64,000 nucleotides of DNA from Escherichia coli (GTDB lineage: Bacteria; Pseudomonadota; Gammaproteobacteria; Enterobacterales; Enterobacteriaceae). The stretch lies in NCBI RefSeq assembly GCF_003334305.1, contig NZ_QOWS01000002.1. One strand, written 5' to 3'. Position 1 is the first letter of the stretch, and every line of letters begins with the position of its first letter. Position numbers: made by a program. Of the stretch, positions 51,001 to 54,000 are shown one piece after another.

Positions 51001-54000
51001 AGTATCATAAACCCGCAGTTCGATATCACGTAGCAGGGTTAAATTCTGTAAGCCGTTGAGTACCGGTGACAGGCGTTCACACAGCGGGGCGCGGGAATGC
51101 AAACGGCGGTTAGCCTGCCATAAAAATGAGAGGATCTGATTTTTATGCTCCAGCCCGGCGGTTTTCTCCTGAACCCGCTGCTCAAGTACGGCATAACTTT
51201 CGGCCAGTTCTGCAGACATATTGTTCAACGCAGTTCCAAGCATCGCCATTTCGTTGCGCCCGCTGATGTTTGCGCGTTGGGTAAAATCGCGATGACTGAC
51301 GGCACTCGCCATTGCCAGCAGTTGCCGCCACGGTTGTAGCAGTCGCGCCCGCAACCAGATAATAGTGAACACCAGTAAAAGTGCCATAAATACCGCCATT
51401 ACCCGATGGACCAGTACCACTGTCTCGATGCGCATTTCCGTGGTGCGGTCAAAACCAGATACCAGTTGATCAAGCCCGGCAACAAACTGGCTGACATCCG
51501 CTGACACCGTTTCTCGGTTTTGTGCACGCATCAACGCAGGGATCAGTTCATTACGCCAGTAATCTTGTAAACCCTGTAATTGCGCCAGTTGTCCGTCTCG
51601 TTCTGCTGCTCGAGTCAACTCGGCGCTAAATGCCGTTTGTTCCATCTCTTTAATTAAGGGCTTGTCTTTCTCGCTTAATGGCACTGCTGCCAACAGACGG
51701 TAACTTTGCATGCGCAGCGATCCCGCTTTGTTGATCGCATGGGCGCTGCCCTGAACGCCTTGCACCAGCCAGCCAGAAACCGCCATCCCTGCCAGTCCAA
51801 TAGCAGTAGAAAGCAACACAATAAGCGCAACCTGATTAACCAGGGTGAGCGGAGAGAGACAACGTTTAAGCATGTAAACCTCTTCCTTCAGGCTTTAAAT
51901 GAGCAATAACCTTAATGAATGTGACGATACATTCTGGAATGGCAGTATTCTCGGCTATTGGCTGAAGTATACCCATACCCGGAAAGAGTTACTCCTTATT
52001 TGCCGTGTGGTTAGTCGCTTTACATCGGTAAGGGTAGGGATTCTACAGCACCGTGAAAAATCTCATAATTTTTATGAAATCACTGTACTCACTATGGGTA
52101 ATGATAAATATCAATGATAGATAAAGTTATCTTATCGTTTGATTTACATCAAATTGCCTTTAGCTACAGACACTAAGGTGGCAGACATCGAAACGAGTAT
52201 CAGAGGTGTCTATGAGTCACTCATCCGCCCCCGAAAGGGCTACTGGAGCTGTCATTACAGATTGGCGACCGGAAGATCCTGCGTTCTGGCAACAACGCGG
52301 TCAACGTATTGCCAGCCGTAACCTGTGGATTTCCGTTCCCTGTCTGCTGCTGGCGTTTTGCGTATGGATGTTGTTCAGCGCTGTTGCGGTGAACTTACCG
52401 AAAGTCGGTTTTAATTTTACGACCGATCAGCTATTTATGTTGACTGCGCTGCCTTCGGTTTCTGGCGCGTTATTACGTGTTCCATACTCCTTTATGGTTC
52501 CTATCTTCGGTGGTCGTCGCTGGACGGCGTTCAGCACCGGTATTCTGATTATTCCTTGCGTCTGGCTGGGTTTTGCCGTGCAGGATACCTCCACGCCTTA
52601 TAGCGTCTTCATCATCATCTCTCTGCTATGCGGCTTTGCTGGCGCGAACTTCGCATCCAGTATGGCAAACATCAGCTTCTTCTTTCCGAAACAGAAGCAG
52701 GGTGGCGCGCTGGGTCTGAATGGTGGTCTGGGAAACATGGGCGTCAGCGTCATGCAGTTGGTTGCTCCGCTGGTGGTATCACTGTCGATTTTCGCAGTAT
52801 TTGGTAGCCAGGGCGTCAAACAGCCGGATGGGACTGAGCTGTATCTGGCGAATGCGTCCTGGATATGGGTGCCGTTCCTTGCCATCTTCACCATTGCAGC
52901 GTGGTTTGGCATGAACGATCTTGCTACCTCGAAAGCCTCCATCAAGGAGCAGTTGCCGGTACTCAAACGGGGTCATCTGTGGATTATGAGCCTGCTGTAT
53001 CTGGCAACCTTCGGCTCCTTTATCGGCTTCTCCGCGGGCTTTGCAATGCTGTCAAAAACGCAGTTCCCGGATGTTCAGATTCTGCAATACGCTTTCTTCG
53101 GGCCGTTTATTGGTGCGCTGGCGCGTTCTGCAGGTGGTGCATTATCTGACCGTCTGGGCGGAACTCGTGTCACGCTGGTGAACTTTATTCTGATGGCGAT
53201 TTTCAGCGGCCTGCTGTTCCTGACCTTACCTACTGACGGGCAGGGCGGAAGCTTCATGGCGTTCTTCGCGGTCTTCCTGGCGCTGTTCCTGACAGCTGGG
53301 CTGGGTAGTGGTTCCACTTTCCAGATGATTTCAGTGATCTTTCGTAAACTGACAATGGATCGCGTGAAAGCAGAAGGGGGTTCTGACGAACGTGCGATGC
53401 GTGAAGCGGCAACCGACACGGCGGCGGCGTTGGGTTTCATCTCTGCGATTGGCGCGATAGGTGGCTTCTTTATCCCGAAAGCGTTCGGTAGCTCGCTGGC
53501 ATTAACGGGTTCGCCAGTTGGCGCAATGAAAGTATTTTTGATTTTCTATATCGCCTGCGTAGTGATTACCTGGGCGGTATATGGTCGGCATTCTAAAAAA
53601 TAAATCTTAATATTTGATTATCCTTTGCGCGGCATGATGTCGCGCTTTTTTTATGCGTCATTTAGTTACAACATACTCATATTATATGGCTTATTTCGCC
53701 GGATTTCATTAAGAGCCATTAATATGTTACCCATGGGGAATACTCCTTAATACCCATCTGCATAAAAATCTTAATAGTTTAAATAACTACAGGTATAAAA
53801 CGTCTTAATTTACAGTCTGTTATGTGGTGTCTGTTAATTATCCTAAAGGGGTATCTTAGGAATTTACTTTATTTTTCATCCCCATCACTCTTGATCGTTA
53901 TCAATTCCCACGCTGTTTCAGAGCGTTACCTTGCCCTTAAACATTAGCAATGTCGATTTATCAGAGGGCCGACAGGCTCCCACAGGAGAAAACCGATGAG

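What the first reader, a model, noticed from the sequence alone, without database searches (positions are those of the whole stretch)
51970..52152. narK promoter: two FNR dyads 38 bp apart plus upstream NarL heptamers
A perfect FNR site TTGAT-ttac-ATCAA (52139..52152) sits about 60 nt before the narK ATG. A second near-consensus site (52101..52114) is centred 38 bp further upstream, and two NarL-type heptamers (TACCCAT at 51970, TACTCCT at 51990) lie about 200 nt upstream of the inferred start. The same far-upstream heptamer arrangement recurs at narG, implying DNA bending between the distal NarL sites and the FNR-bound promoter.
Basis: partly seen in the sequence, partly recalled or inferred. 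Interest (0 to 1): 0.25.

Follow-up and report, generated by a model that had tools for sequence, protein, structure and literature searches.

The report
Known E. coli narK promoter region
This is the well-studied control region of the E. coli nitrate transporter gene narK, where an oxygen sensor (FNR) and a nitrate sensor (NarL) together switch the gene on; the only open point is the second FNR-like site, which is confined to Escherichia and may act on the neighbouring narX gene.

Summary
All four motifs are at the stated coordinates, in the narX–narK intergenic region of E. coli O157:H7. This is a textbook system.

- **Proximal dyad, 52139-52152.** It is a perfect FNR site and the best PWM hit in the window. 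It is identical to the nirB site, has a published FNR ChIP-seq peak, is published at -41.5, and is perfect in 46 of 46 orthologous promoters.
- **Heptamers at 51970 and 51990.** Both are already listed as NarL sites of narK in a database traced to NarL–DNA interaction work. They score at or near the PWM maximum. They are conserved at fixed distance from the FNR site (about -214 and -194) across about 20 genera, although the DNA between them is not conserved. narG has TACTCCT at -195.
- **Second dyad, 52101-52114 (-79.5).** This is the weak point. It is a real one-mismatch match, identical to the 14-mer at the hlyE FNR position. It falls below the published PWM threshold, is absent outside E. 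coli and E. albertii (3 of 46), overlaps proximal NarL heptamers, and lies off the usual activating helical face. Published low-count narX start sites put it at -32.5 or -23.5 of the divergent narX promoter, which FNR is reported to repress.

Verdict: already known; low interest.

The parts
50077..51873 (-). narX coding sequence (divergent neighbour; ATG at 51873)
   Evidence: ORF list; RefSeq annotation of the matching K-12 and O157 regions.
51970..51976 (+). NarL heptamer TACCCAT, centred about -214 of narK
   Evidence: Read. Listed as a narK NarL site. PWM score 9.05 of a maximum 9.22. At this exact offset in 39 of 46 orthologous promoters. Identity to E. coli 0.97 across 21 non-Escherichia sequences.
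51976..51982 (+). Overlapping heptamer position. It is degenerate in E. coli (TACCCGG) but matches the TACYYMT consensus in 12 of 46 relatives (about -208).
51990..51996 (+). NarL heptamer TACTCCT, centred about -194 of narK
   Evidence: Read. Listed as a narK NarL site. PWM score 9.22, the maximum. A consensus heptamer sits at this offset in 36 of 46 promoters, and it varies only at the degenerate Y positions.
52007..52036 (-). Three weaker database NarL heptamers: GTGGTTA 52007-13, ATCGGTA 52024-30 and AAGGGTA 52030-36
   Evidence: Listed. Not conserved: identity 0.22-0.33 against a 0.57 region mean.
52046..52070 (.). Conserved block CAGnnnCGTGAAAAAYCACAnnTTTTT (about -141 to -117). It is a candidate site for an architectural protein (IHF or Fis).
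   Evidence: Alignment, identity 0.69. The narX/narK FNR site is flagged as overlapping IHF ChIP-chip enrichment. No convincing IHF consensus match was found, so the assignment is an inference.
52075..52084 (-). Published narX transcription starts at 52075 and 52084 (K-12 U00096.2 coordinates 1277043 and 1277052). Support is low: 3 and 2 reads.
   Evidence: Kim 2012 supplement. Coordinates were converted through the narK ATG and the FNR site position in Myers Table S6.
52086..52092 (+). Proximal NarL heptamer TACTCAC (about -98)
   Evidence: Listed. Identity 0.90. The consensus TACTCAT is at this offset in 17 of 46 promoters.
52094..52100 (-). Proximal NarL heptamer TACCCAT on the minus strand (about -90). 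It parallels the -89 heptamer of narG.
52101..52114 (.). Second FNR-like dyad ATGATAAATATCAA. It is centred at -79.5 of narK and at -32.5 / -23.5 of the narX start sites.
   Evidence: PWM rank 5 of 63,987 positions, tied with the identical 14-mer at 5307. Absent from the published above-threshold list. Only 3 of 46 promoters have 1 mismatch or fewer here. It contains the listed NarL heptamer ATAAATA at 52104-10.
52117..52123 (-). Database NarL heptamer ATAGATA (about -67)
   Evidence: Not conserved: identity 0.32.
52139..52152 (.). Primary FNR site TTGATTTACATCAA, centred at -41.5
   Evidence: PWM rank 1 in the window. PatSer score 17.06 and ln p -16.52, with a ChIP-seq peak. Reported at -41.5. 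Perfect in 46 of 46 promoters.
52174..52179 (+). Inferred -10 hexamer TAAGGT
   Evidence: Its position follows from +1 = 52187. Identity 0.78. Inference only.
52187..52187 (+). Inferred narK transcription start (A), giving a 25-nt leader
   Evidence: Computed from the published -41.5 position of the FNR site. Not measured here.
52212..53603 (+). narK coding sequence
53728..53757 (+). narG distal NarL heptamers: TACCCAT (-208), TACTCCT (-195) and TACCCAT (-185)
   Evidence: A -195 NarL footprint region is reported. The -195 heptamer is present in 33 of 39 relatives.
53847..53853 (-). narG proximal NarL heptamer TACCCCT (about -89)
53891..53904 (.). narG FNR site TTGATCGTTATCAA at -41.5 (+1 about 53939)

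Best explanation
This is the classical narK control region of E. coli, and it is built like the neighbouring narG promoter.

1. Under anoxia, dimeric FNR binds the perfect dyad at 52139-52152, centred at -41.5, and activates RNA polymerase as a class II activator.
2. With nitrate, phosphorylated NarL binds the far-upstream heptamers (about -214, -208 and -194) and a proximal cluster (about -98 to -67).
3. An architectural protein bound between them bends the DNA so that distal NarL can act on the FNR-RNA polymerase complex. IHF is the likely candidate, with Fis also reported.
4. The second dyad at 52101-52114 is not a core part of this machine. It is an Escherichia-specific, moderate-affinity FNR sequence embedded in the proximal NarL cluster.
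5. Its most likely role, if it has one, is on the divergent narX promoter, whose published start sites place it at -32.5 or -23.5. That is a repressor position.

Shown by published data: FNR occupancy, the -41.5 position, and the listing of the heptamers as NarL sites. Shown here: conservation of sequence and spacing. Inferred: the bending step at narK and any role of the second dyad.
For: - **Identity of the locus:**
- **FNR1:** 3 perfect dyads against 0.08 expected. Rank 1 of 63,987 positions with a PWM built from 61 other ChIP-positive sites. PatSer 17.06 and ln p -16.52, with a ChIP-seq peak and IHF ChIP-chip overlap. Reported at -41.5 and FNR-activated. Perfect in 46 of 46 orthologous promoters at a fixed distance from the ATG.
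- **Regulators:** narK and NarS expression needs FNR and NarL in Salmonella.
- **Distal heptamers:** listed as narK NarL sites derived from Li, Kustu and Stewart 1994. PWM scores 9.05 and 9.22 of a maximum 9.22. Present at exact offsets in 39 and 36 of 46 promoters. The 169/149-bp heptamer-to-dyad spacing is invariant in 34 of 45 relatives, although 52000-52045 is unconserved (identity 0.22-0.33).
- **narG parallel:** NarL-P footprints at -195 and -89, with FNR and IHF also required. The same motifs occur at -195 and -89 in the window.
- **FNR2 as peripheral:** not in the published above-threshold list. Three or more mismatches in 43 of 46 relatives. Right half-site identity 0.30.
- **narX link:** narX start sites at window 52075 and 52084. 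FNR is reported to repress narXL.
Against: - The primary narK papers (Kolesnikow 1992; Bonnefoy and DeMoss 1992; Li 1994) could not be read. What they say about the -79.5 site and about IHF rests on my memory and on secondary citations.
- No clear IHF consensus lies between the NarL clusters.
- The narX start sites rest on 3 and 2 reads from cells that I recall, without checking, were grown aerobically. No good sigma-70 consensus lies at those starts.
- NarL is reported to activate narXL, yet the proximal NarL heptamers would overlap that narX promoter. This does not fit a simple picture.
- The FNR2 14-mer is identical to the one at the hlyE FNR position and scores within the range of ChIP-positive sites. 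FNR binding there, and some effect on narK, cannot be excluded.
Confidence: 0.9

Rival explanations
1. The upstream dyad is a true second activating FNR site for narK. FNR bound at -79.5 would contact the alpha C-terminal domain of RNA polymerase and add to activation from -41.5.
For: - It has one mismatch to the consensus and ranks 5th in the window by PWM, at 13.67, above the weakest ChIP-positive training site at 11.82.
- It is identical to the 14-mer at the hlyE FNR position.
- The ChIP-seq summit at 1277080-82 falls inside it.
- As I recall, databases list an FNR site at -79.5 for narK.
Against: - It is below the published PWM threshold.
- Myers counts one FNR motif in the narK peak, although their counting rule penalises a second site that sits beside a perfect one.
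- The summit offset of -33.5 bp is ordinary: rank 32 of 54, median 21.5.
- Only 3 of 46 orthologous promoters keep it.
- The 38-bp spacing is about 3 bp off the activating face (own knowledge).
- It overlaps NarL heptamers.
Confidence: 0.2
2. The upstream dyad is an operator of the divergent narX promoter. FNR bound there, at -32.5 or -23.5 of the narX starts, blocks RNA polymerase and lowers narXL transcription in anoxia. NarL-P binding to the overlapping heptamers might displace FNR and give the reported nitrate autoinduction.
For: - narX start sites map to window 52075 and 52084.
- FNR represses narX transcription in vitro, and NarL activates narXL (both as cited).
- Positive narXL autoregulation is reported.
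- Heptamer ATAAATA lies inside the dyad spacer.
Against: - The start sites have only 3 and 2 reads, and no second dataset could be found.
- There are no good -35 or -10 hexamers.
- The site is absent in other genera, so this control would be Escherichia-specific.
- The Takahashi 1994 paper was not readable, so which site it implicated is unknown.
Confidence: 0.35
3. The upstream dyad has no FNR function. It is a by-product of an A/T-rich stretch that carries NarL heptamers, and it resembles the consensus by chance.
For: - One-mismatch dyads occur by chance about 3 times per window.
- The left half overlaps the conserved GGGTRATGA block of the NarL cluster, while the right half is unconserved.
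- It is below the published threshold.
Against: - It is conserved in essentially all E. coli and in E. albertii.
- The identical sequence lies at the position of the hlyE FNR site.
- It sits exactly where FNR repression of narX would need a site.
Confidence: 0.3
4. The distal heptamers at 51970-51996 serve narXL autoregulation rather than narK. They lie only 97-123 bp from the narX ATG. The two roles do not exclude each other.
For: NarL activates narXL. The heptamers are closer to narX than to narK.
Against: - With narX starts at 52075 and 52084, the heptamers lie inside the narX leader, downstream of the start.
- Their distance to the narK FNR site is the conserved quantity.
- narG, which has no divergent gene, has the same -195 heptamer.
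- They are listed as narK sites.
Confidence: 0.12

Closest known systems
E. coli K-12 narK promoter (narKp) as described by Kolesnikow et al. 1992, Bonnefoy and DeMoss 1992, and Li, Kustu and Stewart 1994
   Same: It is the same locus. The 371 bp compared differ from K-12 at two bases, 52043 and 52079, and neither lies in a motif of the finding. The FNR site, the -41.5 position and all listed NarL heptamers are identical.
   Different: The only differences are the strain background (O157:H7) and those two SNPs. One SNP lies in the context of a heptamer (CACTGTA) that MotifAdjuster proposed to delete.
E. coli narG promoter (FNR at -41.5, NarL at -195 and -89, IHF near -125)
   Same: - A perfect FNR dyad at -41.5.
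- TACTCCT at -194/-195.
- TACCCAT nearby.
- A reverse heptamer at -90/-89.
- Long-range dependence on NarL with IHF.
   Different: - The spacing among the distal heptamers is 20 bp at narK against 13 and 10 bp at narG.
- narK has an extra FNR-like dyad at -79.5 and shares its upstream DNA with divergent narX.
- The FNR site of narG is not flagged for IHF ChIP-chip overlap, whereas that of narK is.
nirB promoter FNR site
   Same: The 14-mer TTGATTTACATCAA is identical and has the same PatSer score. Both promoters are co-activated by NarL.
   Different: At nir, as stated in the Myers 2013 introduction, NarL acts by displacing IHF and counteracting Fis and IHF. It does not act from about -200.
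hlyE (clyA) class I FNR site at -61.5
   Same: The 14-mer is identical to the second narK dyad in reverse orientation: window 5307-5320 against 52101-52114.
   Different: At hlyE it is the only site, it lies at an activating class I position, and it is masked by H-NS in vivo. At narK it sits at -79.5, next to a much stronger site.

Membership tests
Class II FNR-activated promoter | A TTGAT-N4-ATCAA dyad of high PWM score | tested here: met
   Perfect dyad at 52139-52152. Rank 1 in the window with an independent PWM. Published PatSer score 17.06.
Class II FNR-activated promoter | Dyad centred near -41.5 of a mapped transcription start | not testable with these tools
   The start cannot be mapped here. 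Myers 2013 Table 1 reports -41.5 using EcoCyc and Kim start sites. The Kim 2012 table itself has no narK start.
Class II FNR-activated promoter | FNR occupancy in vivo and FNR-dependent anaerobic expression | not testable with these tools
   From the literature: a ChIP-seq peak called by three algorithms, and the gene classed as activated. narK is lost in a Salmonella fnr mutant.
narG-type NarL/IHF long-range activated promoter | TACYYMT heptamers near -200 that are bound by NarL-P | tested here: met
   The sequence and PWM criterion is met, as is conservation. Binding itself comes from the literature through the database list and was not tested here.
narG-type NarL/IHF long-range activated promoter | A proximal NarL region near -89 | tested here: met
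   Reverse TACCCAT at -90 and TACTCAC at -98, both listed sites.
narG-type NarL/IHF long-range activated promoter | An IHF site between the distal and proximal elements | tested here: inconclusive
   No match better than 2 mismatches to WATCAANNNNTTR, which is the chance level. However, there is a conserved block at -141 to -117 and published IHF ChIP-chip overlap.
narG-type NarL/IHF long-range activated promoter | A fixed distance or phase between the distal heptamers and the FNR site | tested here: met
   Spacing of 169 and 149 bp is identical in 34 of 45 relatives, across unconserved DNA.
Tandem-FNR promoter (two functional FNR sites) | The second dyad passes a validated PWM threshold | tested here: inconclusive
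   It is not in Myers Table S6, whose threshold is ln p -10.75. With my approximate PWM it scores 13.67, inside the range of ChIP-positive sites, whose minimum is 11.82.
Tandem-FNR promoter (two functional FNR sites) | The second dyad is conserved in orthologous promoters | tested here: not met
   One mismatch or fewer in 3 of 46 promoters, all Escherichia. The other 43 have 3 to 8 mismatches.
Tandem-FNR promoter (two functional FNR sites) | The second dyad lies on the activating face (-61, -71, -82 or -92) | tested here: not met
   The centre is at -79.5, which is 38 bp from -41.5. The reference positions come from my own knowledge of Wing et al. 1995.

The most novel reading that the evidence does not exclude
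The -79.5 dyad is an Escherichia-specific innovation that wires FNR into the divergent narXL promoter. FNR would sit on the narX core promoter in anoxia. NarL-P, binding the heptamers that overlap the dyad, would evict it. The same 30 bp would then serve both as a narK co-activation module and as a nitrate-relieved FNR operator for the sensor operon.
Probability: 0.2. Interest if true: 0.3.

Novelty: already known. Interest (0 to 1): 0.1.

Why it matters
The result mainly works as a positive control. A reader with no tools recovered a textbook promoter architecture, and the tools confirm it. Two small points have value beyond that.

1. Comparison across genera gives sequence-level support for a distance-constrained NarL-to-FNR architecture: the heptamer-to-dyad spacing is invariant across unconserved DNA.
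2. The second FNR site, which as I recall databases list for narK, is lineage-specific and is better placed to act on narX. This could be tested with two reporter fusions and one point mutation.

Tried and rejected
1. **ChIP-seq summit test.** I asked whether the FNR ChIP-seq summit, which falls inside the second dyad, proves that the dyad is occupied. Across 54 single-site peaks the median summit-to-motif offset is 21.5 bp, and narK's 33.5 bp ranks 32nd, so the test is uninformative.
2. **IHF consensus scan.** A scan between the NarL clusters found only 2-mismatch hits, which is the chance rate.
3. **Sigma-70 consensus scan.** It found no minus-strand narX promoter. It found one plus-strand hit at 52042-52069, within chance expectation.
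4. **Primary papers.** Kolesnikow 1992 and Rabin 1992 are not held in the library. Full-text searches for '79.5', 'narK promoter' and tandem FNR found nothing useful.
5. **A second start-site dataset.** The Cappable-seq supplements had no hit, and the Klebsiella start-site table had no narX or narK entry.
6. **Mapping window position 5307 through O157 strain TR01.** This failed because the window is not collinear with that record over 47 kb. The ORFs were used instead.
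Full report
**What the window is.** The 411 bases around the finding match E. coli O157:H7 at 100% identity. They are present in 5416 of 5426 complete E. coli genomes, always annotated narX / narK. In the window, narX runs on the minus strand to its ATG at 51873. narK starts at 52212 and narG at 53996. The 371-bp control region differs from K-12 at only two bases, 52043 and 52079, and neither lies in a motif of the finding.

**The observation.**
- TACCCAT is at 51970-76 and TACTCCT at 51990-96.
- ATGATAAATATCAA is at 52101-14 and TTGATTTACATCAA at 52139-52.
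- The dyad centres are 38 bp apart, and the proximal dyad ends 60 nt before the ATG.
- Perfect FNR dyads occur 3 times in the window against 0.08 expected.
- Dyads with up to one mismatch occur 8 times against 2.9 expected.
- TACYYMT occurs 50 times against 30 expected and is concentrated in the two nar intergenic regions.

I built an FNR matrix from 61 ChIP-positive sites in Myers 2013 Table S6, leaving out the narK and narG sites themselves. I built a NarL matrix from 56 curated heptamers, leaving out narK and narG.
- The proximal dyad is the best of 63,987 positions in the window, with a score of 20.6.
- The upstream dyad ranks 5th with 13.7, tied with the identical 14-mer at 5307. That is above the weakest training site (11.8) and below the median (15.3).
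- The two heptamers score 9.05 and 9.22 out of a possible 9.22.
- In the published analysis the proximal dyad has PatSer 17.06 and ln p -16.52, equal to the identical nirB site and exceeded, in the part of the table I read, only by the yfiD site at 17.25.
- The upstream dyad is absent from the published list of sites passing ln p -10.75.

**Published experimental status.**
- Myers et al. (PMC3688515) report an FNR ChIP-seq peak at narX/narK called by three algorithms. They report FNR-dependent activation and the top motif at -41.5.
It puts +1 at window 52187, the -10 at TAAGGT (52174-79) and a 25-nt leader.
- The MotifAdjuster supplement (PMC2718512) lists the database NarL sites of narK and traces them to Li, Kustu and Stewart 1994. 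Both heptamers of the finding are on that list.
- The list holds seven more narK sites: 52007, 52024, 52030, 52086, 52094, 52104 and 52117.
- In Salmonella, narK and its 3'-derived sRNA NarS require FNR and NarL.

**Comparison with relatives.** A search with NarK returned 80 loci. I used 45 of them, plus the window itself, as narK orthologue promoters spanning about 20 enterobacterial genera and Rahnella.
- The proximal dyad is perfect in 46 of 46, at 71-75 nt from the ATG in most of them.
- Consensus heptamers sit at exactly -214 in 39 of 46 and at exactly -194 in 36 of 46. Substitutions fall only at the degenerate Y positions: TACTCCT, TACCTCT and TACCCCT.
- A third heptamer at -208 is consensus in 12 relatives but degenerate in E. 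coli (TACCCGG).
- The heptamer-to-dyad distances of 169 and 149 bp are identical in 34 of 45 relatives. The DNA at 52000-52045 is essentially unconserved, with identity 0.22-0.33 against 0.57 for the region.
- A conserved distance across unconserved sequence is what a phased, bent architecture predicts.
- A conserved block at 52046-52070 (-141 to -117) lies where narG has its IHF site. The consensus scan is uninformative, but the narK FNR site overlaps an IHF ChIP-chip region.
- From memory, Kolesnikow 1992 reported that IHF and Fis are needed for full narK expression. corroborates the Fis part.

**narG.** With its dyad at 53891-904 set to -41.5, narG has TACCCAT at -208, TACTCCT at -195, TACCCAT at -185 and a reverse TACCCCT at -89. 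These match the published -195 and -89 NarL-P footprints and the FNR/IHF requirement. The -195 heptamer is present in 33 of 39 relatives. It is sharpest for TACTCCT at -194/-195 and for the reverse heptamer at -90/-89. The internal spacing of the distal cluster differs between the two promoters.

**The second dyad.** This is the only contestable part.

In its favour:
- It has one mismatch to the consensus and a good PWM rank.
- It is conserved across E. coli and E. albertii.
- It is identical, in reverse orientation, to the 14-mer at window 5307-5320, which lies between hlyE and umuD at the position expected for the class I -61.5 FNR site of hlyE.

Against a role in narK activation:
- It has 3 to 8 mismatches in 43 of 46 relatives. 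Its right half-site identity is 0.30, and even one Escherichia clade (L002) has 4 mismatches.
- It is below the published PWM threshold.
- It contains the NarL heptamer ATAAATA and abuts ATGGGTA.
- The 38-bp spacing is about 3 bp off the -82.5 activating position (own knowledge).

The ChIP summit lies inside it, but that offset is ordinary.

**A different reading of the second dyad.** Kim et al. 2012 list narX start sites at K-12 1277043 and 1277052. Those are window 52075 and 52084 on the minus strand.
- The dyad is then centred at -32.5 or -23.5 of the narX promoter.
- FNR is reported to repress narX transcription in vitro, and NarL to activate narXL.
- The start sites rest on only 3 and 2 reads, and I could not corroborate them.
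- I therefore give this reading about 0.35.

**Verdict.** The finding is a correct re-discovery of a known regulatory region. The primary FNR site, the distal NarL heptamers and the narG parallel are confirmed and are strongly conserved. 'Two FNR dyads' overstates the case for the second site. Novelty: already known. Interest: low.

Noticed in passing
window 5307-5320: The 14-mer ATGATAAATATCAA is identical to the second narK dyad. It lies between hlyE (minus strand, ATG at 5180-5178) and umuD (5553), at the position expected for the known class I (-61.5) FNR site of hlyE. It shows that this exact sequence is a competent FNR target elsewhere.
   Followed up: partly
window 4671-5180 (minus strand): The hlyE reading frame stops after about 170 codons (…SEKSSFSSHR*). 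As I recall, K-12 HlyE is 303 aa. This looks like a frameshifted hlyE in this O157:H7 sequence.
   Followed up: no
window 61627-61640: This is the third perfect FNR consensus in the window (TTGATAAGCATCAA). It lies inside the purU coding sequence. Myers 2013 lists the K-12 equivalent (1287368, 'within purU') as a predicted site with no ChIP peak, so it is a silent site.
   Followed up: partly
window 53603/53604; K-12 locus L001 4755-4877: K-12 carries a 123-bp ERIC-like repeat inserted immediately after the narK stop codon, and the window lacks it. The insertion is polymorphic: 2977 of 5426 complete E. coli genomes match it. The K-12 narS sRNA annotation spans it, so the narK 3' UTR and NarS precursor differ in length between strains.
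   Followed up: partly
K-12 locus L001, about 4815-4830 (absent from the window): One database 'NarL site' of narG (TACTTTA, in the context TCACTTACTTTAGTAAG) lies inside that ERIC insertion. It is therefore missing in O157:H7, which argues that it is not a required narG element.
   Followed up: no
window 52042-52069 (+): There is a sigma-70-like pair TCTACA-16-CATAAT inside the conserved block upstream of narK; K-12 has TTTACA. It is within chance expectation and is not conserved in other genera.
   Followed up: partly
window 52086-52100: The proximal NarL heptamers TACTCAC and ATGGGTA are inverted with a 1-bp spacer (7-1-7), not the canonical 7-2-7. The block TACTCAYWWAGGGT is conserved across genera.
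   Followed up: no
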